From Candidatus Levybacteria bacterium RIFCSPHIGHO2_01_FULL_36_15b (GTDB taxonomy: Bacteria > Patescibacteriota > Microgenomatia > Levybacterales > UBA12049), in assembly GCA_001782045.1 (NCBI GenBank), contig MFNK01000003.1:101905-165904 (forward strand): DNA of 64,000 nucleotides, written 5' to 3'. A program made the translations under genes and the position numbers. Below, piece after piece: positions 7,686 to 63,864 of this stretch. Below the pieces are notes generated by a model. It was not told the origin of the DNA. It ran no database searches and was given only the letters and a program-made list of their open reading frames with translations. The stretch's first letter is position 1, and each line of letters starts with the position of its first letter.

Positions 7686-7715
7686 TTGACAAGCAATTTT
7701 GTATATGATTATGAT
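7686..7715 (+). promoter_or_regulatory. candidate promoter for major pilin gene (TTGACA-18-TATGAT)
   Basis: TTGACA 7686-7691, TATGAT 7710-7715, ATG at 7726 only ~5 nt after predicted TSS. Confidence 0.3.
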
Positions 7716-7725
7716 TAAAACATAC

Positions 7726-8286
7726 ATGAGAAAACTGCTCAATGTTTTTAAAGGAACAAAAGGTTTTACTCTCATCGAACTTTTAGTCGTCATCGGAATT
7801 TTAGGAATTTTGGCAGCAGCATTAATTGCAACTATTGATCCCTTCGAGCAGCTTAAAAAAGGGCGAGATACTACTACAAGAAACACTACTCTTGAATATT
7901 TAAATGCTCTTACTCGATATTATGCAACTCACGCAAAATTTCCTTGGGATAATGCTGTCGCAAATTGCAATGCTCCCACAACAGCAGTCCTTCTTTCAAC
8001 CATGAAAGATAATTGTACGGACGCATTAGAGGACGAAGGTGAGCTTAAGGTTGGATTTGGGGCAGCTGTAGACAGTTCCGGAGTCGATGATTTAATTAAA
8101 ATAAAAACAAGCGCTGCGGGTTCAGCGAATGTAACTCTCTGTTTCAGCCCAACAGCAAAATCTATAAAATCAGAAGATGCAACTAAATATGATAATAGTT
8201 GCTCAGGAGTAACTCCCCCAGGTTGTGCTACTTCAGCATTAAGATTAGCTGCTGCAGACGGGACTTGTTGGCAAGAATTTAAATAA
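7726..8286 (+). CDS. type IV major pilin candidate (class III signal peptide, Cys-rich C-terminal domain)
   Basis: MRKLLNVFKGTKG|FTLIELLVVIGILGILAA: prepilin peptidase site G|F with Glu+5. Track ORF begins at TTG 7699 but ATG 7726 gives the canonical short basic leader. First gene after pilC; 8 Cys in C-terminal half. Confidence 0.8.
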   Translation: MRKLLNVFKGTKGFTLIELLVVIGILGILAAALIATIDPFEQLKKGRDTTTRNTTLEYLNALTRYYATHAKFPWDNAVANCNAPTTAVLLSTMKDNCTDALEDEGELKVGFGAAVDSSGVDDLIKIKTSAAGSANVTLCFSPTAKSIKSEDATKYDNSCSGVTPPGCATSALRLAAADGTCWQEFK

Positions 8287-8332: not shown

Positions 8333-9118
8333 GTGTATTTATTTGCAGTAGCCCTTTTTATTATTGGATTGTTTATTGGTTCTTTTTTAGGCGTTTTGAT
8401 AGATAGACTTCCCAAGGGTAAATCTGTTTTAAAAGGAAGGTCTAAATGCGATTTTTGTAAGAAGGAATTAGCTTGGTACGAGTTAATTCCGGTTTTATCC
8501 TTTGTAATTCAAAATGGAAAATGCAGAAGTTGCCATAAAAAACTTTCATTATTCTACCTAACTATTGAGCTCTCAACGGGATTTTTATTCGCAGTAACGT
8601 ATCTATTATTAATTCATAATTCAGAATTCATAATTCAGAATTTGCTTTTCTATTTGCTTATCACATCAAGCTTGATTGTTGTGTTCTTTACGGATTTAAA
8701 ATACGGAATAATTCCCAATAAAATTATTTTCCCATCTGTCTTGGTTACGCTTTTGTGGCTCTTATTTAGCCAACAGCCAACAGCCATAAACCATCTGCTT
8801 TCTGCAATTGGTGCTTCTTTATTTTTAACTCTAATTTCATATATTTACTATTTAATTAGAAAAAAAGAAAGCATAGGAGGCGGAGATATTAAGTTTGCGT
8901 TTTTAATGGGACTTTTGCTTGGTTTTCCAAATATTATTCTTGCTTTTTATATAGCTTTCTTGACAGGCGCAGGATACTCTATCATACTAATTTTATGGGC
9001 AAGATTAAAGCTAAAAGATTCAATTCCATTCGGCCCATTTTTAGTATTAGGAACTTTTGCTTCTCTTTATTTCGGAAGAGAAATCTTATTCTTAATACTC
9101 CCCTACCTAGGCCTTTAG
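8333..9118 (+). CDS. pilD: prepilin peptidase / N-methyltransferase PilD (A24 family)
   Basis: N-terminal CxxC...CxxC zinc motif (CDFCKKEL...CRSCHKK), 6-7 TM, GGGDIKF catalytic-region motif. Confidence 0.9.
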   Translation: MYLFAVALFIIGLFIGSFLGVLIDRLPKGKSVLKGRSKCDFCKKELAWYELIPVLSFVIQNGKCRSCHKKLSLFYLTIELSTGFLFAVTYLLLIHNSEFIIQNLLFYLLITSSLIVVFFTDLKYGIIPNKIIFPSVLVTLLWLLFSQQPTAINHLLSAIGASLFLTLISYIYYLIRKKESIGGGDIKFAFLMGLLLGFPNIILAFYIAFLTGAGYSIILILWARLKLKDSIPFGPFLVLGTFASLYFGREILFLILPYLGL

Positions 9119-9927
9119 AGGGTTTTACTTTAGTTGAGCTTATTATTGTTACTGCAATTTTAGGTATTTTAGCAGGACTTGTTTTATTTACACTTAACCC
9201 ATTTACGCAGCTTGCAAAAGCAAGAGATGCACAAAGGCAGAACGACATAAAGCAGCTTCAGTCTGCTCTTGATACTTACTACAACGATAATAATTACTAT
9301 CCGTCGACTTCAAACCCTTGGTTAACCAGTAACGATTTGGGGCCGCAATATATTAAAAAAATTCCAGTGGACCCTGAAGGAAAGGTATACGTATATCTGG
9401 AAGATCCTTCTAGCCGTCCACAGTGGAATGCATTATTTACAAGACTTAGTGCGCTTCCTGCAACTACCATTTCTTGCCCTCTTGTGCAACTTGAAGCTGA
9501 AGTTGGCGATTGCCTGCCGGAAAACTATGAAAGCGGATACAACTATTGCGTTGTTTCAGGGGATGTAAAATGCAGCGATATTGCCTCGCTTTCTCTCCCT
9601 GATTTAGGAATTCCTACGTCTGCTCCAACACCTCCTGCAGGTGCAACAGATACACCTACATCAGCTCCTACGGCGCCTCCAGGTGCAACAAATACGCCTA
9701 CACCCACCATTACTCCAACTCCTACACCTGCCGGGCCCACGAATAGTCCCACGCCTACTCCAACCCCTGTTATCTGCAGTAATTATTACGCCTATACAAC
9801 GGGTCCAAATTGCAACGATTTAGGTCCAGATCCGGGTAATCAATGCACTATTCACGGAGGGTCATTTATATGCTATAAAAGTAGAACAGGGTCTATTTGC
9901 GATACTCAATTTCCCTGCGCGCAGTAA
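8995..9927 (+). CDS. large pilin-like protein with Pro/Thr-rich linker and Cys-rich C-terminal module; start codon uncertain
   Basis: LEG|FTLVELIIVTAILGILAGL prepilin motif at 9118-9180. Only in-frame ATG is 41 codons upstream (8995), inside pilD; no ATG/GTG/TTG between. PT repeats PTSAPTPPAGATDTPTSAPTAPPGATNTPTPTITPTPTPAGPTNSPTPTPTP, then 8-Cys tail. Confidence 0.65.
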   Translation: MGKIKAKRFNSIRPIFSIRNFCFSLFRKRNLILNTPLPRPLEGFTLVELIIVTAILGILAGLVLFTLNPFTQLAKARDAQRQNDIKQLQSALDTYYNDNNYYPSTSNPWLTSNDLGPQYIKKIPVDPEGKVYVYLEDPSSRPQWNALFTRLSALPATTISCPLVQLEAEVGDCLPENYESGYNYCVVSGDVKCSDIASLSLPDLGIPTSAPTPPAGATDTPTSAPTAPPGATNTPTPTITPTPTPAGPTNSPTPTPTPVICSNYYAYTTGPNCNDLGPDPGNQCTIHGGSFICYKSRTGSICDTQFPCAQ

Positions 9928-18063: not shown

Positions 18064-20070
18064 TTAGTCGGGGTAAATTTTTTTGTCGCTTAATTTAACA
18101 CTTTCGACAAGTTTTGGATAGTCGCTTAATTTATTAAAAATTTGCATAGCAGCTTCTTTTGTTTTTTGAATTAGGTCCAAATCTGAAAAACTAGCAATTT
18201 TAAGCATAGGAATTCCATGTTGCATTGTGCCGTAAATATTTCCGGGACCTCTTAATTTTAAATCAAGCTCGGCAAGCTTTGGGCCCGAATAAATTTGTTC
18301 CATTGCTTTAAGTCTTTTAAGCGTTTGAGGATTAGTGCTTGATGTAAATAATAGGCAAAATGATTGTTTATTGCCTCGTCCTACTCTTCCCCGCAGTTGA
18401 TGAAGCTGAGCCAGTCCAAAGCGTTCTGATTCCTCAATCAGCATTATAGTTGCCGAAGGGATATCAATTCCCACCTCAACTACAGGAGTTGAAACAAGAA
18501 TATCCAACCTTCTGTTTTTAAAAGCACTTAAAACATCTTCTTTTTCCCTTGATTTAAGTTTTCCGTGTAAAAGTCCAAGTTTTAAGTCAGAAAACACTTC
18601 GCTAGACAATCTTTCAAATTCTTTTTTTGCCGCTTTAACCGTAGTCATATTTTCCGACTCCTCAATTAAGGGGCAAATTATAAATACCTGGTCATTTTCT
18701 TTTTTTACTTTACCTTTTATCCATTCATATGCGTTTTCTCTTTTTAAAGGAGGTACAAGCCATGTTTTAATATTAATTCTTCCTTTTGGCATCTCATCAA
18801 GAATAGATAAGTCTAAGTCGCCATACATAGTAAGCGCTACGGTTCTTGGTATTGGAGTTGCAGTCATTGTTAAAAGATGCGGATTTTGACCCTTAAGACG
18901 AAGCATGGCTCTTTGCTCTACTCCAAATCTTTGTTGTTCATCAATCACGACTAATCCCAATTTGTCAAATTTTACCTTTTTATAAATAAGCGCATGAGTC
19001 CCAACAGCGACATCAAATCGCCTATTTATTTTCGATTCTGAAGAGAATAATTCTACAGCTATTCCCAAAGGCAAGAAAAGACTTGCAAGAGTTTTAAAGT
19101 GCTGCCTCGCTAGTATTTCTGTTGGTGCCATAAAAGCAGTCTGGAAACCGTTTAAATAAGCCACATAGGCCGCTATAGCTGCAACTACGGTTTTCCCGCT
19201 TCCTACGTCCCCCTCCAGCAATCTATTCATAGGCTTATCGCTATTTAAATCATTTAGTACTTCATCTACTGCTCTTTTTTGTGCCACCGTTAATTCAAAA
19301 GGTAAAGATTTTATAAAATCAGCGATTTTTTTATTAAATAACCCAACGTTCCACGGTTTAATTTTTTCTTTTTGCCATTCCCTTTTTCTATTTAAAGACG
19401 ACAAATGAAGCTTTAGCATTTCATCAAAAGACAATCTTTCCCGTGCTTTTTTAGCTTCATTCTGATTTTTCGGAAAGTGAATTGCCTTAATTGCACTTGA
19501 TAAATCGATCAAGTTATTATTTTTAATCAACTCGGCGGGTATATAATCGTCAAAGTTTTTAAGCTCTTCGAGTATCTTAAAAACCTGTCTTCGAATCCAT
19601 TTTGACGATACGCCTTTTGTTTCGGGATAAATTGGCACAAGTCTTCCGGTATGAATAGTTTGATTATTTAAAATTACTTCATAATCTGGAGATATCATAA
19701 TGAATCCGTTTTTTTCCTGCTGCACCTTGCCTGACAAAGATACTTCATCTTTTGCTTTTAATGCCTTTGGAATATAGGGCTGATTAAACCAAATAATATC
19801 AATTGTGCCTGTATTATCGCTGATTTTTGCTTTCTGTAGGCTTTTCCAGCGCCTGGTATAACTATTTTCAATTTTTTCCACCCTTCCTTTTATAGTAACT
19901 AGCTCACCTGCCTGGATTTGGTTAATTTGTGAAATTAGCGAATAATCTTCATATCTAAAAGGAATATGAAACAGGAAATCATATAACTTAAAAATTCCAA
20001 GCTTAGCAAGCCTTCGCGCGTACATTTTATACGACCTCGAAGCCCCTGTTATAGGCGTATTTAAATCCAT
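18064..20070 (-). CDS. recG: ATP-dependent DNA helicase RecG
   Basis: Wedge/OB N-domain, Walker A GDVGSGKT, DEQQRFGV box, QLRGRVGRG motif VI. Confidence 0.9.
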   Translation of the reverse strand: MDLNTPITGASRSYKMYARRLAKLGIFKLYDFLFHIPFRYEDYSLISQINQIQAGELVTIKGRVEKIENSYTRRWKSLQKAKISDNTGTIDIIWFNQPYIPKALKAKDEVSLSGKVQQEKNGFIMISPDYEVILNNQTIHTGRLVPIYPETKGVSSKWIRRQVFKILEELKNFDDYIPAELIKNNNLIDLSSAIKAIHFPKNQNEAKKARERLSFDEMLKLHLSSLNRKREWQKEKIKPWNVGLFNKKIADFIKSLPFELTVAQKRAVDEVLNDLNSDKPMNRLLEGDVGSGKTVVAAIAAYVAYLNGFQTAFMAPTEILARQHFKTLASLFLPLGIAVELFSSESKINRRFDVAVGTHALIYKKVKFDKLGLVVIDEQQRFGVEQRAMLRLKGQNPHLLTMTATPIPRTVALTMYGDLDLSILDEMPKGRINIKTWLVPPLKRENAYEWIKGKVKKENDQVFIICPLIEESENMTTVKAAKKEFERLSSEVFSDLKLGLLHGKLKSREKEDVLSAFKNRRLDILVSTPVVEVGIDIPSATIMLIEESERFGLAQLHQLRGRVGRGNKQSFCLLFTSSTNPQTLKRLKAMEQIYSGPKLAELDLKLRGPGNIYGTMQHGIPMLKIASFSDLDLIQKTKEAAMQIFNKLSDYPKLVESVKLSDKKIYPD

Positions 20071-20189: not shown

Positions 20190-21359
20190 TTATTTTACCA
20201 CAAGTCTTCTGAAAGTCCTTTTTCCTACTCTAAGAATCCCCTCCTTAATTTTATAACTAGAGTCTTTTATTTGCTTATTATTTAATGAGACTCCTCCTTG
20301 CTCTATTAATCTTTTTGCCTGTGATTTGCTTTCAGCAAGTTTAGTTTGAATGAGAATATCGGAAGCGGTAATGTTTTCTTTAATTTTAATCTCTAGAATA
20401 TTTCCCGGAGTTTCTCCCTCCTGAACAGTATTTTCAAAATCTTTTTGTGCAGAAGTTGCCTCTTTTTCGCCGTTTATGTCTTTGACGATTTCAAATGCCA
20501 ATTTCTTTTTAATATTAATCGGATTTTCCTTTTTTAATAATTTTTCTAAGCCATTTATAATAGAAAGAGATAAATTTGTACTCAAATTTAAATATTGAAC
20601 AATAAGTATGTCCGATATGGCCATCACCTTTGCGTATATATTTTTTGAGCTATCATCCAGCCAAATTGCATTGCCGTAAGATTTACTCATCTTTCGGCCA
20701 TCCGACCCTTCTAAGATAGGAGTAGTTAATACGAATGACTCTTTGTTTTTTATGTCTTTCAATAAGGTCCTTCCCGCCTGCATATTAAAAGTTTGATCTG
20801 TTCCGCCTATTTGAATATCCGTATTAAGCATCAAGCTATCGTAACCCTGCATGACAGGATAGAGTAGCTCATGTAGTCCGACCCTTTTGTTTTCTTTTAA
20901 TCTTTTTCTAATAAGTTCTCTGCCAATAAAATCTCCCGTACTAAAGTGCTGCATCAGTTTTAATATATCTTCAAAACCAAGCTGCTTTAGCCATTCGCTG
21001 TTATACTTAATTTTTACTTTTGAAAAATCGACTATTTTCTCAGCTTGGTTTTTATAAGTTTTAAAGTTTTCCTTAACCTCGTCTTTTGTAAGAGCAGGTC
21101 TTTCAGATTCTTTGTCCGAAGTATCTCCGATTAAGGCAGTAAAGTCTCCTATTAAAAAAGTAACGTTGTGTCCCAGTTCTGCAAATTGTTGAAGCTTGCG
21201 CAACGCTACTGCGTGTCCTAGATGTATTTTAGTAGATGTTGGGTCGATTCCTAAGTATACGTTCAATTTTTTTCCGCTCCTTAGTTTTCCCAAGAGAACA
21301 TTTTTATCAGGTATAATATTGGCTATACCTCTTTCCAGTATTTCTAAAGGCTTATCCAT
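20190..21359 (-). CDS. tyrS: tyrosyl-tRNA synthetase
   Basis: HIGH-type motif IHLGH, KMSKS present (RKMSKSYGN), C-terminal S4-like domain. Confidence 0.8.
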   Translation of the reverse strand: MDKPLEILERGIANIIPDKNVLLGKLRSGKKLNVYLGIDPTSTKIHLGHAVALRKLQQFAELGHNVTFLIGDFTALIGDTSDKESERPALTKDEVKENFKTYKNQAEKIVDFSKVKIKYNSEWLKQLGFEDILKLMQHFSTGDFIGRELIRKRLKENKRVGLHELLYPVMQGYDSLMLNTDIQIGGTDQTFNMQAGRTLLKDIKNKESFVLTTPILEGSDGRKMSKSYGNAIWLDDSSKNIYAKVMAISDILIVQYLNLSTNLSLSIINGLEKLLKKENPINIKKKLAFEIVKDINGEKEATSAQKDFENTVQEGETPGNILEIKIKENITASDILIQTKLAESKSQAKRLIEQGGVSLNNKQIKDSSYKIKEGILRVGKRTFRRLVVK

Positions 21360-34645: not shown

Positions 34646-34717
34646 GCGGGAGTAGTTCATCGGTAGAATGTTTCCTTGCCAAGGAAAAGGTAGCGGGTTC
34701 GATTCCCGTCTCCCGCT
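34646..34717 (+). tRNA. tRNA-Gly (anticodon GCC); no CCA
   Basis: GCGGGAG acceptor, loop TTGCCAA, T-loop TTCGATT, 3' CTCCCGC. Confidence 0.85.
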
Positions 34718-34757
34718 CAAAATACCCTCGAAATGCTACAAAAATGCAGAAGAAAAG

Positions 34758-35216
34758 TTAGTGGATTTCGACCTTAGCTTCATAGGCCAAATTTCTAGCT
34801 TCCGCGTAGGCTTTAGGAAATTTACTTTCATTTCCCATTATTCTGTCTGCGAGCCCATTTTTTATCTCAAATCCCGCAATTATCCCGCTAATTGGATTTA
34901 CTGGCTCTATTAATGCAGTTACGCCATCCATGTATGCCACAACATAATCATTTATTCTATCTTTGAAAGTTTCCGTTTGAAAATAATAGTCCGTTACTTT
35001 GTTTGAGTCGTATGTTCTGCGTGTTTCTTTAGATAACCTACCACTAAAAGTTCCATCTTCTGTGCTCCAAAAAACTTTTTCATTTATAGGTTTGCCATTG
35101 GTTCTAGCAGCAAGTACATCAAGATCTAATTCGGAAACAGGAACGAAAGATACCTCCTGTTCTTTCTCAGGGAGTAAAGGTGGATTATTGTCTGTTCTCT
35201 CTAAAGCGACTGACAT
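34758..35216 (-). CDS. hypothetical protein (153 aa)
   Basis: ATG at 35216; the longer track ORF (to 35411) would run antisense through tRNA-Phe, so the shorter start is preferred. Confidence 0.4.
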   Translation of the reverse strand: MSVALERTDNNPPLLPEKEQEVSFVPVSELDLDVLAARTNGKPINEKVFWSTEDGTFSGRLSKETRRTYDSNKVTDYYFQTETFKDRINDYVVAYMDGVTALIEPVNPISGIIAGFEIKNGLADRIMGNESKFPKAYAEARNLAYEAKVEIH

Positions 35217-35285
35217 AACATAAGGATGATATTCTACAGGAAATTTGTCAATAGTCAAGTGCTCTAGTATAATATTAGTCTGTAA

Positions 35286-35358
35286 GCTGAGATAGCCAAG
35301 GTGGTCAAGGCACCTGTCTGAAGAACAGGCTATGTGTGTTCGACTCACACTCTCAGCA
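35286..35358 (+). tRNA. tRNA-Phe (anticodon GAA); no CCA
   Basis: GCTGAGA/TCTCAGC acceptor, loop CTGAAGA, T-arm GTGTG-TTCGACT-CACAC. Confidence 0.85.
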
Positions 35359-35386
35359 CAATTCGACAAGCTTAGTACAAGCACTT

Positions 35387-35469
35387 GCGGATGTGGTGAA
35401 ATGGTATACACGCAGCCTTGAGGTGGCTGTGCCGTAAAAAGCGTGGAGGTTCGAGTCCTCTCATCCGCA
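35387..35469 (+). tRNA. tRNA-Leu (anticodon GAG), long variable arm; no CCA
   Basis: GCGGATG/CATCCGC acceptor, loop TTGAGGT, variable arm TGCCGTAAAAAGCGTG. Confidence 0.85.
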
Positions 35470-35480
35470 CAAATTACCTT

Positions 35481-35552
35481 GGGTACTTAGCTCAGTGGTA
35501 GAGCGCTTCGTTTACATCGAAGATGTCGGGGGTTCAAGTCCCTCAGTACCCA
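35481..35552 (+). tRNA. tRNA-Val (anticodon TAC); no CCA
   Basis: GGGTACT/AGTACCC acceptor, loop TTTACAT. Confidence 0.85.
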
Positions 35553-35580
35553 CATATTAGGCACGCTCAGCGTAAACAAA

Positions 35581-35664
35581 GCCCAGGTGGCGAAACCGGC
35601 AGACGCGCAGCGTTCAGAACGCTGTGTCCGCAAGGACTTGGGAGTTCGAATCTCCCCTTGGGCA
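35581..35664 (+). tRNA. tRNA-Leu (anticodon CAG), long variable arm; no CCA
   Basis: GCCCAGG acceptor, loop TTCAGAA, T-arm GGGAG-TTCGAAT-CTCCC. Confidence 0.85.
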
Positions 35665-42092: not shown

Positions 42093-42929
42093 TTATATTA
42101 TTTCAAATAGAAGTTTAAATACTTCGTAAAAACCCCAAAGCGCCAGTACTATAAATGCCAGTCCTCCGATAATTAAAACAACAGGATGACGTACTACTTG
42201 GACCGTCTTTGAGGGCCAAATAAACAATCCAATATTTAAAATCATATGCCCAAGCATTACTCCTAATGCAAATCCAAATAAATTAACTACGTCAAAAAGA
42301 GGAATATAACCTGCAAAATCATCTAAGCCCAAAATAAACGGAATGGTAAAAGAAAAAACCGCCAAGTTTGTAAAAGAAAGTTTTTTTGCACGTGTTAAAT
42401 TAAGGTGAGGAACAAAATATCTAAGAATAGGTCGGAATAACTTATTTACAAAATTTAATTGAGACTGAAGAAGATACACCGGCATTTTAATATCTATTAA
42501 GAAGCTTTTTCTTTGTTTAAGAAATTCTTCTAAGCTTTCCTGAGCCATTCTAAGAAGTACAATAGAGGCAACAAAAATCATAATCATCATTAGAAATGGA
42601 ATTTCTTTAAATACTACCCAAACGATTAAAACTGCAAACGTTCCGAATGCATTCCCTACAGCCGTTCCAAGCTCTATTGCAATTCTTTTTTGCCAACCGG
42701 GGTTTGTATGCATTAAATTGCCGATAAATATTGCAAAGTCTATTGCGGTTTTAAGATAAATAGCAATTCCGATAAGAATATCCCGTTTTCTAAAATCTAA
42801 AACTATTTTGTCAGTTAAGGGAAATGTATTTAAAATTAAAAGAAGTCCGTACAAAAGCGTTGAAAGGACAAAAAATGTAAGAATTGTTAATGCAACCGGG
42901 ATAACTTGACGAATAAAAACTTTTTTCAT
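42093..42929 (-). CDS. integral membrane protein (8 TM; TerC/DUF475-like?)
   Basis: 278 aa, highly hydrophobic; family assignment uncertain. Confidence 0.4.
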   Translation of the reverse strand: MKKVFIRQVIPVALTILTFFVLSTLLYGLLLILNTFPLTDKIVLDFRKRDILIGIAIYLKTAIDFAIFIGNLMHTNPGWQKRIAIELGTAVGNAFGTFAVLIVWVVFKEIPFLMMIMIFVASIVLLRMAQESLEEFLKQRKSFLIDIKMPVYLLQSQLNFVNKLFRPILRYFVPHLNLTRAKKLSFTNLAVFSFTIPFILGLDDFAGYIPLFDVVNLFGFALGVMLGHMILNIGLFIWPSKTVQVVRHPVVLIIGGLAFIVLALWGFYEVFKLLFEII

Positions 42930-63123: not shown

Positions 63124-63864
63124 ATGAAAGAATCTGCAAAATTTTTAATTTGTTGGGATCTTGATGAGACTCTTGGGCATTTTGCTCCTCTAGTGTATGA
63201 TATGGATGGCGAAGAAAGACCACGGTGGGATAAAGACGTTTATTTAGCCTATGGTATTCAAGACGTCCTTGATAAATTCTCCGAAAAAAACGGGTTTAGA
63301 AGTTGCGTTACCACAGCCTCGATGAGAGATTACGCGGAGTTTGCTCTTGAACAGACAAATTTACGTAGTTATTTTTCAGATTTGTATGCAAGAGACGTCA
63401 CTGCACCGTATTATGAAACAACTCGCTTGTACGTTGGTAAAACATATGAAGATGTTGCTTGGGAGCACATTCCATACGATGATTATCCCAATAGAATGGT
63501 GGTAATAGGTGATAAGGTTGAAGATAATCCTATTGACATGCGTGAACTAGTGCATATCTATTCACCGGGTATTTACTTTAACGCTATGGTAATAAGGGAA
63601 ACCTTGGTTGCATTGCTGGAGGCAGGAAACGATAGCTTCAGAAAAGGTTTTGATGTACTGGCTTCAAGAGGAACAAGAGAGTTTTTCGACAATTCTTCAA
63701 TAGATGCGTATTATCATGTAGATATTGGAAGTGGAATTGAAATTGCTTTAAGTAAGACTAAAGGCTCGGGACCACTAAATGATGAGGATGGTAATATTCC
63801 TCAAGTTTACATAAGAAGTGCCGAAGATTTTAGAAAACAACCAACATTAGTTCCTGTTACATAA
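63124..63864 (+). CDS. HAD-superfamily hydrolase (DxDxT phosphatase)
   Basis: Motif I WDLDETLGHF, motif IV VVIGDK; TGgTATAAT extended -10 at 63106-63114 just upstream. Confidence 0.5.
   Translation: MKESAKFLICWDLDETLGHFAPLVYDMDGEERPRWDKDVYLAYGIQDVLDKFSEKNGFRSCVTTASMRDYAEFALEQTNLRSYFSDLYARDVTAPYYETTRLYVGKTYEDVAWEHIPYDDYPNRMVVIGDKVEDNPIDMRELVHIYSPGIYFNAMVIRETLVALLEAGNDSFRKGFDVLASRGTREFFDNSSIDAYYHVDIGSGIEIALSKTKGSGPLNDEDGNIPQVYIRSAEDFRKQPTLVPVT

What the first reader, a model, noticed from the sequence alone, without database searches (positions are those of the whole stretch)
8995..9927. Large PT-linker, Cys-rich pilin whose prepilin motif has no canonical start codon and whose only ATG lies 41 codons upstream inside pilD
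The prepilin motif LEG|FTLVELIIV is at 9118-9150, exactly where pilD ends in another frame. Between the only in-frame ATG (8995) and the motif there is no ATG/GTG/TTG. The only near-cognate is ATT at 9088. Three options follow: (a) an unusually long 41-aa leader translated from inside pilD; (b) a rare ATT/CTT start; (c) an undetected frameshift. The mature protein is also unusual for a pilin. It carries about 50 aa of Pro/Thr repeats (a likely O-glycosylation or extended linker) followed by an 8-Cys C-terminal module (CSNYYAYTTGPNCNDLGPDPGNQCTIHGGSFICYKSRTGSICDTQFPC), as expected for a tip adhesin.
Basis: seen in the sequence. Interest (0 to 1): 0.6.

Follow-up and report, generated by a model that had tools for sequence, protein, structure and literature searches.

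The report
Pilin leader encoded inside peptidase gene
In this candidate-phyla (Levybacteria-type) bacterium a pilus subunit starts at an ATG inside the gene of the peptidase that later trims it, so its unusually long 43-residue leader is read from the enzyme gene's last 41 codons in another frame, probably from a promoter that begins the mRNA at that ATG.

Summary
The core observation is correct. ORF 8995-9927 encodes a prepilin whose G|FTLVEL site (Gly 9121-9123, Phe 9124) has no ATG/GTG/TTG before it except ATG 8995, 124 nt inside pilD (8333-9118) in its -1 frame.

It is not a sequencing error or an ATT start. Forty-one other assemblies of relatives, mostly titled Levybacteria or Patescibacteria, have the same layout.
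- A start codon sits at the same pilD position, made by a PilD Trp codon plus the preceding wobble base. It is ATG in 36 and GTG in 3 of 39 tabulated loci, and ATG in two more read by eye.
- The pilin frame has 0 stops in 1542 overlap codons, against 115 in the third frame.
- Relatives whose pilin has its own short-leader start lack the Trp, and most have stops there.

Upstream of the ATG, TTGACA-17 nt-CATACT-6 nt is invariant, including at pilD synonymous sites. This is a textbook sigma-70 promoter geometry that puts the transcript start on the A of the ATG, implying a leaderless mRNA. Almost no gene in the window has a Shine-Dalgarno sequence, and -10 boxes cluster 6-9 nt before ATGs.

The mature protein is a modular pilin: a GspG-like head, a PT linker and a 6-Cys (not 8-Cys) module of unknown fold. 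I rate it a new variant of known kinds. There is no transcript or protein evidence.

The parts
8333..9118 (+). pilD, a prepilin peptidase with an N-methyltransferase domain. Its last 41 codons plus stop are overlapped by the pilin leader. The start codon (GTG 8333) was not verified.
   Evidence: Pfam A24_N_bact 2e-29 and Peptidase_A24 3e-16. ORF list.
8960..8965 (+). TTGACA, the predicted -35 hexamer of an intragenic promoter, at -35..-30 relative to A8995. It lies in pilD codons Leu209 TTG and Thr210 ACA.
   Evidence: Found by the promoter scan. Invariant in 38/38 overlap loci. The Phe TTC, Leu TTG and Thr ACA codons are used in 31/31 sequences, whereas other conserved columns use 2-6 codons.
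8983..8988 (+). CATACT, the predicted -10 hexamer. The spacer to the -35 is 17 nt, and 6 nt separate it from the ATG.
   Evidence: Ile217 ATA and Ile219 ATT are invariant codons, and Leu218 is always CTN with a free wobble. The 6-nt spacing is the modal -10-to-ATG spacing of other genes in the window.
8995..8997 (+). ATG start codon of the prepilin and predicted transcription start (A8995). It is formed by the wobble A of pilD Leu TTA plus TG of pilD Trp TGG.
   Evidence: ATG in 36 and GTG in 3 of 39 tabulated overlap loci. PilD has Trp here in all of them and in 0 of 12 control loci. ATG also in L105 and L106.
8995..9123 (+). Leader peptide of the class III signal, 43 aa: MGKIKAKRFNSIRPIFSIRNFCFSLFRKRNLILNTPLPRPLEG. 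It has 10 Lys/Arg and 1 Glu. Positions 8995-9118 lie in the -1 frame of pilD.
   Evidence: The frame is free of stops in 38/38 loci. Low pLDDT suggests disorder.
9121..9126 (+). Predicted PilD cleavage site, Gly43 | Phe44.
   Evidence: Sequence motif G|FTLVE with Glu+5. Pfam N_methyl scores 21.0 bits, just under the 21.2 cut-off. The cleavage itself is inferred.
9124..9609 (+). Pilin module: the hydrophobic alpha1N helix followed by a GspG-like globular head with 4 Cys (residues 44-205).
   Evidence: Pfam T2SSG 7.9e-7, above cut-off. AF2 pLDDT is mostly >90, with helices 46-66 and 69-99 plus a beta-sheet. Foldseek best hit is EpsG 4lw9. The family profile hits solved pilins down to 3e-14.
9610..9771 (+). 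Pro/Thr-rich linker, residues 206-259 (54 aa, 65% P+T).
   Evidence: pLDDT 46-62. Present in homologues.
9775..9924 (+). C-terminal 50-aa module with six conserved Cys, approximately C-x(8-15)-CN-x(7-10)-C-x(8-10)-CY-x(5-13)-C-x(3-5)-C. Fold and function unknown.
9925..9927 (+). Stop codon TAA of the pilin. The next pilin gene starts at ATG 9931.

Best explanation
The gene is a functional prepilin translated from ATG 8995, which lies 124 nt inside pilD in its -1 frame.

**Proposed mechanism**
1. A sigma-70-type promoter is embedded in the pilD coding sequence: TTGACA 8960-8965, a 17-nt spacer, then CATACT 8983-8988. It starts transcription at or next to A8995, so the pilin mRNA is leaderless and begins with AUG.
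2. This organism hardly uses Shine-Dalgarno sequences, so the ribosome recognises the 5'-terminal AUG.
3. The first 41 codons re-read pilD's last 41 codons. Only pilD wobble bases are free there, and they are kept such that no stop arises.
4. The product carries a 43-aa, strongly basic and probably disordered leader. The leader stays in the cytoplasm while alpha1N inserts in the membrane.
5. PilD, the protein encoded by the overlapped gene, cuts after Gly43 and methylates Phe44. This releases a 267-aa modular pilin: a GspG-like head, a PT linker and a 6-Cys module displayed on the pilus.

**Likely origin: overprinting**
The intragenic promoter for the downstream pilin genes is older. A change of a pilD codon to Trp (TGG) created A|TG at the transcript start, and the original short-leader start was then lost.

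**Shown versus inferred**
- Shown: conservation of the start codon, the open frame and the promoter hexamers.
- Inferred: transcription start, leaderless initiation, cleavage and pilus display.

My confidence that translation starts at this ATG and gives a long cleavable leader is about 0.85. My confidence that it does so through a leaderless transcript from the intragenic promoter is about 0.65. The single figure given (0.7) is for the statement as a whole.
For: **Conserved arrangement**
- Thirty-eight non-redundant loci with a measured pilin overlap, plus L069, L105 and L106, come mostly from records titled Levybacteria or Patescibacteria. All have pilD directly upstream, the pilin in pilD's -1 frame and a start codon at the same pilD column.
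- The start is ATG in 36 and GTG in 3 of 39 tabulated loci, and ATG in L105/L106.
- Overlaps are 115-133 nt and leaders 34-73 aa.

**The start codon is selected**
- PilD has Trp (TGG) at that column in all overlap loci. The preceding codons are TTA, ATA, CTA, GTA, TTG or GTG, so the wobble is always A or G.
- In 12 control loci, where the pilin has its own start, PilD has L, A, F, S or M there and never Trp.

**The frame is kept open**
- There are 0 stops in 1542 overlap codons in the -1 frame, against 115 in the +1 frame. Controls have 14 stops in 485 codons, and only 3 of 12 are open.
- At pilD codons starting AA, AG or GA, the preceding wobble is T in 0 of 268 cases. The rate is 34.6% in upstream pilD and 17.9% in controls.

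**No alternative start**
- Fourteen of 38 loci, including the window and L035, have no other ATG/GTG/TTG before the Gly.
- L012 has a 39-aa leader without the overlap.

**The promoter**
- TTGACA at -35..-30 and CATACT at -12..-7 are invariant in 38/38 loci and were found by the scan in the window.
- Of 68 conserved degenerate pilD columns, only 5 use a single codon in all 31 sequences. All 5 lie in these hexamers or beside them.
- Synonymous identity just upstream of the ATG is 0.686, against about 0.47 elsewhere and 0.379 in controls.

**Genome context**
- Only 1 of 37 tested genes has a clear SD.
- Twelve of 41 ATG genes have a >=5/6 -10 box 6-9 nt upstream, where about 1.3 are expected. The modal spacing of 6 nt equals that of this gene.
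- The 5' 80 nt are not structured.

**Pilin identity:**
Against: - There are no transcript 5' ends, ribosome footprints or peptides. Everything after 'conserved' is inference.
- The overlap loci form essentially one clade on a pilD tree. The counts are therefore not independent events, although pilD identity falls to 43% within it.
- Synonymous sites inside the overlap are barely more conserved than elsewhere (0.494 against 0.471). The leader sequence seems constrained only to stay open.
- Twenty-four of 38 loci do have a downstream in-frame TTG, GTG or ATG that could give a shorter leader.
- The same TTGACA-17-CATACT exists in sister loci that lack the ATG (L014, L047, L086, L087, L098). The motif is therefore not specific to the overlap and could serve another purpose.
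- In the window alone, promoter-like hits are not above shuffles.
- The promoter specificity of RNA polymerase in these uncultured bacteria has not been measured.
Confidence: 0.7

Rival explanations
1. The ATG at 8995 is used, but by internal initiation on the polycistronic pilB-pilD mRNA rather than on a leaderless transcript. On this view the conserved TTGACA...CATACT nucleotides serve something else, such as a regulator site or an RNA element.
For: - The motif is also kept in sister loci without the ATG.
- Most genes in this genome lack an SD, so SD-independent internal initiation must exist for genes inside operons.
- The single-window promoter count is at chance level.
Against: - The conserved bases coincide exactly with the two sigma-70 hexamers at canonical spacing (17 nt) and canonical distance to the ATG. 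The wobble base between them and the ATG is free.
- The same -10-to-ATG spacing is enriched at other genes.
- Position +1 is a purine in all loci, including the sister loci.
Confidence: 0.18
2. Translation starts close to the cleavage site at a non-canonical or weak codon: ATT 9088 here, or TTG in the 'SFLGK' segment of relatives. This would give an ordinary 8-25-aa leader. The upstream open frame and ATG would be by-products of pilD coding.
For: - ATT 9088 would give a 12-aa leader of normal length.
- Twenty-four of 38 relatives have an in-frame TTG, GTG or ATG 3-46 codons before the Gly.
Against: - No near-cognate or TTG codon is positionally conserved across loci, and 14 loci have no canonical alternative.
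- This reading does not explain 0/268 T at stop-creating wobble sites. Nor does it explain the strict association of PilD Trp plus an A/G wobble with the overlap class.
- Controls in the same -1 frame relation that have their own pilin start (L014, L016) carry stops in that frame.
Confidence: 0.06
3. A programmed -1 ribosomal frameshift or transcriptional slippage in the 3' part of pilD makes a PilD-pilin fusion, which is then cut at G|F.
For: - The pilin is always in the -1 frame of pilD.
- Twenty-one of 38 loci have an A-run of 7 or more just after the ATG, for example ATGGAAGAAAAAAAA.
Against: - The window has no X_XXY_YYZ heptamer and no homopolymer of 6 or more anywhere in the open -1 stretch 8893-9124.
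- Six loci have A-runs of 4 or fewer.
- This reading does not explain the conserved ATG/GTG or the promoter hexamers.
- The A-runs are explained by Lys codons of a cytoplasmic loop of PilD.
Confidence: 0.03
4. A sequencing or assembly indel in 9080-9125 removed a normal start, or the gene is a decaying pseudogene.
For: None beyond the missing proximal start codon.
Against: - The same layout occurs in 41 other assemblies from different samples and pipelines.
- The mature part is well conserved, with all Cys retained.
- An identical 310-aa protein exists in a separate ENA contig (P0001).
Confidence: 0.01

Closest known systems
Type IV pilins / class III signal peptides (IPR012902, PF07963) processed by PilD-type prepilin peptidases
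   Same: - It has Gly-1, Phe+1 and Glu+5, a hydrophobic alpha1N stretch of about 22 residues and a lollipop fold with a GspG-like head.
- The peptidase gene is adjacent, inside a complete pilB-pilT-pilC...pilM-(pilN)-pilO operon.
- The leader is hydrophilic and basic, as the positive-inside rule requires (review PMC10191384).
   Different: - The leader is 43 aa here and 34-73 aa in relatives.
- Five other prepilins of the same operon appear to have 9-13 aa leaders (my reading of the ORF translations).
- From my own knowledge, T4a leaders are about 5-18 aa and T4b leaders up to about 30 aa.
- The leader is encoded inside the peptidase gene.
Type IVb pilins (long-leader pilins of TCP, BFP and CFA/III pili)
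   Same: A long leader peptide is the classical T4b hallmark (PMC10191384).
   Different: - The machinery here is T4a-like, with PilT and PilM/O.
- The mature N-terminus is Phe.
- T4b pili are reported only in Proteobacteria (PMC10191384), whereas these loci come from candidate-phyla-radiation (CPR) bacteria.
- The head resembles GspG and C. difficile PilA1.
- This is not a member of the T4b class.
Modular type IV pilins (S. sanguinis PilB/PilC; Raynaud et al. 2021, PMC8179133)
   Same: - An N-terminal pilin module is joined by a linker to an extra C-terminal module.
- Relatives in this family carry a ConA-like lectin (P0018) or CBM_4_9 (P0074) module in that position.
   Different: - The linker is a long PT-rich segment of 54 aa rather than a short loop.
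- The module is a 50-aa 6-Cys unit with no Pfam, structural or profile relative.
- No binding function is known.
Leaderless mRNAs from intragenic promoters (for example Shigella VirF21, made from a leaderless transcript started inside virF; PMC9217107)
   Same: A promoter inside a coding sequence places the transcript start on an AUG, which is then used without a 5' UTR.
   Different: - In virF the second product is an in-frame shorter isoform of the same protein.
- Here the transcript encodes a different protein in another frame, the substrate of the enzyme whose gene hosts the promoter.
- Here the transcript start is only predicted.
Long out-of-frame gene overlaps created by overprinting (common in viruses, rare and often artefactual in bacterial annotation)
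   Same: Two proteins are read from one DNA stretch in different frames. The younger reading (the leader) is compositionally odd, disordered and weakly constrained.
   Different: - Only a disposable signal-peptide leader is overprinted, not a functional domain.
- The overlap is conserved across a deep uncultured lineage and couples an enzyme gene with its substrate gene.

Membership tests
Type IV pilin (class III signal peptide) | Leader ending in Gly/Ala, followed by about 21 hydrophobic residues, often with Glu at +5 | tested here: met
   ...PLEG|FTLVELIIVTAILGILAGLVLFTL, with Gly43, Phe44 and Glu48. AF2 gives a helix at 46-66 and 69-99 with pLDDT >89.
Type IV pilin (class III signal peptide) | Match to the curated signal-peptide and pilin-domain models | tested here: inconclusive
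   PF07963 N_methyl scores 21.0 bits against a cut-off of 21.2, just below. PF08334 T2SSG scores 29.6 against 21, which passes. The family profile hits solved pilins at 3e-14 to 1e-3.
Type IV pilin (class III signal peptide) | Cognate prepilin peptidase and assembly machinery present | tested here: met
   PilD. PilB, PilT, PilC, PilM and PilO are in the same operon.
Type IV pilin (class III signal peptide) | Leader actually removed by PilD, and pilin assembled into filaments | not testable with these tools
   Needs biochemistry or proteomics.
Type IVb pilins | Long leader together with T4b-type machinery and a proteobacterial host | tested here: not met
   The leader is long (43 aa). However, the operon is T4a-like with PilT, PilM and PilO. 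Relatives are titled Levybacteria or Patescibacteria.
Modular pilins | Pilin module plus a separate extra module joined by a linker | tested here: met
   The AF2 confidence profile shows a high-pLDDT head, a low-pLDDT PT linker (206-259) and a separately folded 261-310 unit. Homologues carry Laminin_G_3 or CBM_4_9 modules after the same head.
Modular pilins | Extra module is a domain also found outside pilus biology, with ligand-binding function | tested here: inconclusive
Leaderless mRNA gene | -10 box ending about 6-7 nt before the start codon, so that +1 is the A of ATG, with no SD | tested here: met
   CATACT at 8983-8988 and ATG at 8995. TTGACA lies 17 nt upstream. There is no SD. The same geometry is enriched at other genes.
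Leaderless mRNA gene | Start codon is AUG (rarely GUG) at the 5' end | tested here: met
   ATG in 36 and GTG in 3 of 39 tabulated loci.
Leaderless mRNA gene | Mapped primary 5' end at the start codon | not testable with these tools
   No transcript data are available.
Conserved out-of-frame overlapping gene pair | Second frame kept open beyond chance | tested here: met
   0 stops in 1542 codons against 115 in the third frame. T at 0/268 stop-creating wobble sites, against 18-35% in controls.
Conserved out-of-frame overlapping gene pair | Reduced synonymous variation of the older gene within the overlap | tested here: inconclusive
   Identical-codon fraction is 0.494 in the overlap against 0.471 upstream. 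The strong signal lies upstream of the ATG in the promoter, not in the overlap.
Programmed -1 frameshift | Slippery X_XXY_YYZ heptamer or a long homopolymer in the 0 frame | tested here: not met
   None in 8893-9124 of the window. A-runs occur in only 21/38 relatives.

The most novel reading that the evidence does not exclude
The overlap may be more than a tolerated accident. On this reading the arrangement is a functional enzyme-substrate coupling device.
- The promoter and start codon of the pilin are hard-wired into the peptidase gene, so neither can be lost or moved without the other.
- The long basic leader, or the 43-aa peptide released in the cytoplasm after cleavage, has a role of its own. 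Possible roles are timing of processing, retention of a prepilin pool, or feedback on PilD or pilus assembly.

This would be the first class III signal peptide with a function beyond targeting, and the first case of a protease gene encoding the cleaved part of its own substrate.
Probability: 0.1. Interest if true: 0.85.

Novelty: new variant of a known kind. Interest (0 to 1): 0.6.

Why it matters
- **Leader length.** It extends the known range of prepilin leaders to 34-73 residues. This shows that PilD-type peptidases probably tolerate very long, essentially arbitrary cytoplasmic leaders.
- **A real bacterial overlap.** It is a well-supported example of a long (115-133 nt) out-of-frame gene overlap in bacteria that is conserved rather than an annotation artefact. 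It comes with a plausible step-by-step origin: an existing intragenic promoter, a single codon change to Trp that creates AUG at the transcript start, then loss of the old start.
- **Translation in these bacteria.** It points to leaderless translation as a common mode in this candidate-phyla-radiation lineage. That matters for gene calling in these genomes.
- **Annotation errors.** Pipelines already disagree on this gene. Some call the full ORF. Others start inside the transmembrane helix and delete the signal peptide (P0002, P0003, P0037). Such calls hide a widespread pilin family from pilin-finding tools.

Tried and rejected
- **-1 frameshift or slippage.** Rejected for the window, which has no slippery heptamer or homopolymer. 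A-runs in relatives are explained by Lys codons.
- **SD upstream of ATG 8995.** Absent, but uninformative, because nearly all genes lack one.
- **Synonymous-site suppression within the overlap.** Only marginal. I therefore do not claim that the leader sequence itself is selected.
- **RNA structure at the 5' end of the predicted mRNA.** None (z = +0.6).
- **Rfam scan of the window.** Only 17 tRNAs, nothing near the locus.
- **Literature searches.** I searched for long prepilin leaders, pilD overlaps, Levybacteria pili, and leaderless mRNA in these bacteria. I found no description of this arrangement. The library is open-access only, so absence is weak evidence.
- **Independent origins.** I considered whether the overlap class has several origins. 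The pilD NJ tree shows essentially one clade, so I treat the loci as retention of one event. L069 may be an exception.
Full report
**1. What is in the window**

ORF 8995-9927 (+) is 310 codons. pilD occupies 8333-9118 (+) in the frame one base ahead, and it matches Pfam A24_N_bact and Peptidase_A24. Read in the pilin frame, pilD's last 41 codons give MGKIKAKRFNSIRPIFSIRNFCFSLFRKRNLILNTPLPRPLEG. This runs straight into FTLVELIIVTAILGILAGLVLFTL.

- Gly-1 is at 9121-9123, Phe+1 at 9124-9126, and Glu is at +5.
- No ATG, GTG or TTG lies between 8995 and the Gly.
- The leader is therefore 43 residues, with 10 Lys/Arg and 1 Glu.
- By my reading of the ORF translations, five other prepilins of the same operon have 9-13-residue leaders.
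- The operon is a complete type IV pilus cluster: PilB, PilT, PilC, pilin, PilD, this pilin, five or six further pilin-like genes, PilM, a probable PilN, and PilO.

Small errors in the finding:
- The quoted C-terminal string has 6 Cys, not 8.
- ATT occurs five times in the leader, not once.
- 9118-9150 begins at the Glu, not the Leu.

**2. Homologues show the long leader is real**

A protein search found 77 relatives, almost all from uncultured bacteria of the candidate phyla radiation (CPR). They share the same architecture of pilin head, PT linker and Cys-rich tail. Their called N-termini fall into three classes:
- long leaders beginning MGK... or MEEKK...;
- ordinary short leaders;
- calls that begin inside the transmembrane helix.

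I fetched DNA for 34 loci from species-representative genomes, mostly titled Levybacteria, Levyibacteriota or Patescibacteria. I fetched 70 more from metagenomes.

In 38 non-redundant loci, pilD lies directly upstream and the pilin is in pilD's -1 frame. That frame is open back to a start codon at one fixed pilD column. L069 has the same start column and arrangement by eye, and so do L105 and L106. That makes 41 loci besides the window.

- Overlaps are 115-133 nt and leaders 34-73 residues.
- Fourteen loci have no other canonical start before the Gly.
- The closest relatives are L035 (34-aa leader MGKIKAKRRNSLRPFF...) and L105/L106 (43-aa leader MGKIKAKRRNSLRPIFGIRN...). They match the window almost base for base around the start.
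- L012 has a 39-residue leader that overlaps only pilD's stop codon, so long leaders in this family do not depend on the overlap.

**3. Is the conservation just a by-product of pilD?**

The leader motif S-S-L-W-x-I-F is the -1 reading of PilD's IPFGPF motif. PilD is also a hydrophobic protein with few codons that can create out-of-frame stops. Controls were therefore needed, and three were informative.

(a) *The start codon.* It is formed by the wobble base of a Leu, Ile or Val codon plus TG of a PilD Trp codon.
- All overlap loci have Trp there. The preceding codon is TTA, ATA, CTA or GTA in 36 loci, and TTG or GTG in 3. The start is therefore always ATG or GTG.
- Twelve control loci, whose pilin has its own start, have Leu, Ala, Phe, Ser or Met at that column and never Trp.

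(b) *Stops between that column and pilD's stop.*

| Set | -1 frame stops | +1 frame stops | Loci fully open in -1 |
|---|---|---|---|
| Overlap loci (1542 codons) | 0 | 115 | 38 of 38 |
| Controls (485 codons) | 14 | 35 | 3 of 12 |

(c) *Stop-creating wobble sites.* These are the wobble bases before pilD codons that begin AA, AG or GA, where a T would create a stop in the pilin frame.
- T occurs at 0 of 268 such sites in the overlap.
- It occurs at 34.6% of 1078 such sites in upstream pilD.
- It occurs at 17.9% of 78 such sites in the same region of controls.

The overlap loci form essentially one clade on a pilD tree, so these are not independent origins. However, pilD identity within the clade falls to 43%, and synonymous sites are close to saturated. 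Retention therefore implies purifying selection on an open frame that begins at this ATG.

Synonymous variation inside the overlap is barely reduced (0.494 against 0.471). The leader seems to be selected only to be translatable, not for its sequence.

**4. How can an ATG buried in a gene be used?**

The same synonymous-site analysis showed a peak just upstream of the ATG: 0.686 against 0.379 in controls. Aligning the 45 nt upstream of the start shows TTGACA at -35..-30 and CATACT at -12..-7, counting the A of ATG as +1. Both are invariant in 38/38 loci.

- In the window these are 8960-8965 and 8983-8988, and the promoter scan reports them as TTGACA-17-CATACT.
- Of 68 pilD columns with a conserved, degenerate amino acid, only five use one codon in all 31 sequences: Phe TTC, Leu TTG, Thr ACA, Ile ATA and Ile ATT. 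All five lie in or beside these hexamers.
- Leu218 is always CTN, which fixes the last two bases of the -10 box and leaves its own wobble free.

This is selection at the nucleotide level. It matches a canonical sigma-70 promoter whose predicted start point is the A of the ATG, giving a leaderless mRNA.

The genome context fits.
- Only one of 37 tested genes in the window has a clear Shine-Dalgarno match.
- Twelve of 41 ATG genes have a >=5/6 -10 box 6-9 nt upstream, where about 1.3 are expected. The modal spacing of 6 nt equals that of this gene.
- The first 80 nt of the predicted mRNA are not structured.

Sister loci that keep the two hexamers but have AGC, AAG, ACT or ATT instead of ATG at +1 have their own pilin start further downstream. 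This suggests the promoter came first and the ATG was created at a pre-existing transcript start. For example, TTG to TGG in pilD needs one base change.

**5. Rivals**

- A proximal ATT or TTG start explains neither the Trp-ATG association nor the stop avoidance, and no such codon is positionally conserved.
- A -1 frameshift is excluded for the window by the absence of any slippery heptamer or homopolymer. It also does not explain the ATG.
- A sequencing error is excluded by 41 other assemblies and by an identical protein on another contig.
- The serious remaining alternative is that the ATG is used by internal initiation on the operon mRNA and the conserved hexamers do something else. I give this about 0.18.

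**6. The mature protein**

AF2 with the family alignment gives the following:
- a disordered leader (pLDDT about 45-51);
- a confident alpha1 helix and head (pLDDT mostly >90);
- a low-confidence PT linker;
- a separately folded C-terminal unit.

Foldseek's best matches are the pseudopilin EpsG and C. difficile PilA1, and a family profile hits solved pilins. The PT linker is residues 206-259.

Other members of the family carry a ConA-like lectin or a CBM_4_9 module after the same head. The protein therefore fits the published class of modular pilins, which are thought to be tip-exposed or displayed on flexible linkers (PMC8179133). Adhesion, tip location and glycosylation are untested.

Disulfide-forming enzymes are reported to be enriched in CPR genomes alongside pilus genes (PMC6744442). 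This is consistent with a 10-Cys extracellular pilin.

**7. Comparison with the known, and novelty**

Each ingredient is known:
- class III signal peptides of variable length (PMC10191384);
- modular pilins (PMC8179133);
- leaderless mRNAs, including ones started from promoters inside genes, such as Shigella VirF21 (PMC9217107);
- overprinted overlapping genes.

The combination is new. The leader exceeds the roughly 30-residue maximum that I recall for characterised prepilins. It is encoded out of frame in the 3' end of the gene for the peptidase that removes it. A conserved intragenic promoter probably drives it, and the arrangement is maintained across a deep uncultured lineage. I found no description of this in six literature searches, though the library holds open-access papers only.

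I rate it a new variant of known kinds, with interest 0.6.

A practical consequence is that gene callers disagree on this gene. Several database entries start inside the transmembrane helix (P0002, P0003, P0037), which erases the signal peptide.

Noticed in passing
window, all genes (e.g. ATGs at 63124, 39650, 45218; minus-strand genes 18064-20070, 20190-21359, 42093-42929): Almost no gene has a Shine-Dalgarno sequence; only 62330 has GGAGGTG. TATAAT-like boxes pile up 6-9 nt before ATG codons (12 of 41 genes against about 1.3 expected). This suggests that leaderless transcripts are a common mode of expression in this genome.
   Followed up: partly
L105 1501-2280, L106 1501-2325, L023/L085 (P0037): Public gene calls for the closest relatives start at an internal ATG or TTG inside the alpha1N helix (MLGILLG..., MVELVVV...). 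The ORF in fact runs back to the conserved ATG in pilD. The class III signal peptide is thus lost in annotation.
   Followed up: yes
L012 2457-2580: This relative has a 39-aa leader that starts at an ATG overlapping only pilD's stop. The leader ends ...SSHPFGPFQNG|FTL, so a PilD-like PFGPF motif is read in the pilin frame. It may be a relic of a duplicated or frame-shifted pilD 3' end. Unexplained.
   Followed up: no
L047, L086, L087 (pilin N-termini): Related pilins next to pilD have Gln instead of the usual Glu at position +5 (G|FSLIQ, G|FSLLQ).
   Followed up: no
window 7686-7728: The pilin gene upstream of pilD is preceded by TTGACA-18-TATGAT (11/12 match), ending 10 nt before ATG 7726. 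The ORF finder's TTG 7699 start is probably too far upstream. The likely leader is MRKLLNVFKGTKG|FTL.
   Followed up: partly
window 31003-63102: Seventeen tRNA genes lie in the second half of the window, several of them clustered at 34646-35664.
   Followed up: no
L008, L009, L011, L012, L014, L015, L018, L019, L024, L025 (record titles): Genome records carrying these CPR-type pilus loci are titled 'uncultured Gammaproteobacteria bacterium'. This looks like a taxonomic mislabel of the deposited bins.
   Followed up: no
L054, L060, L069: Three overlap loci have GTG instead of ATG at the conserved start (pilD TTG-TGG or GTG-TGG). On the pilD tree, L069 groups with L012 and L014, which lack the Trp/ATG column. 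This hints at either a second origin or reversions.
   Followed up: partly
P0016, P0018, P0074 (homologues): Members of the same pilin family carry other C-terminal modules after the PT linker. P0018 has Laminin_G_3 (ConA-like lectin), P0074 has CBM_4_9, and P0016 has an unassigned region of about 200 aa. Modules appear to be swapped on a constant pilin head.
   Followed up: partly
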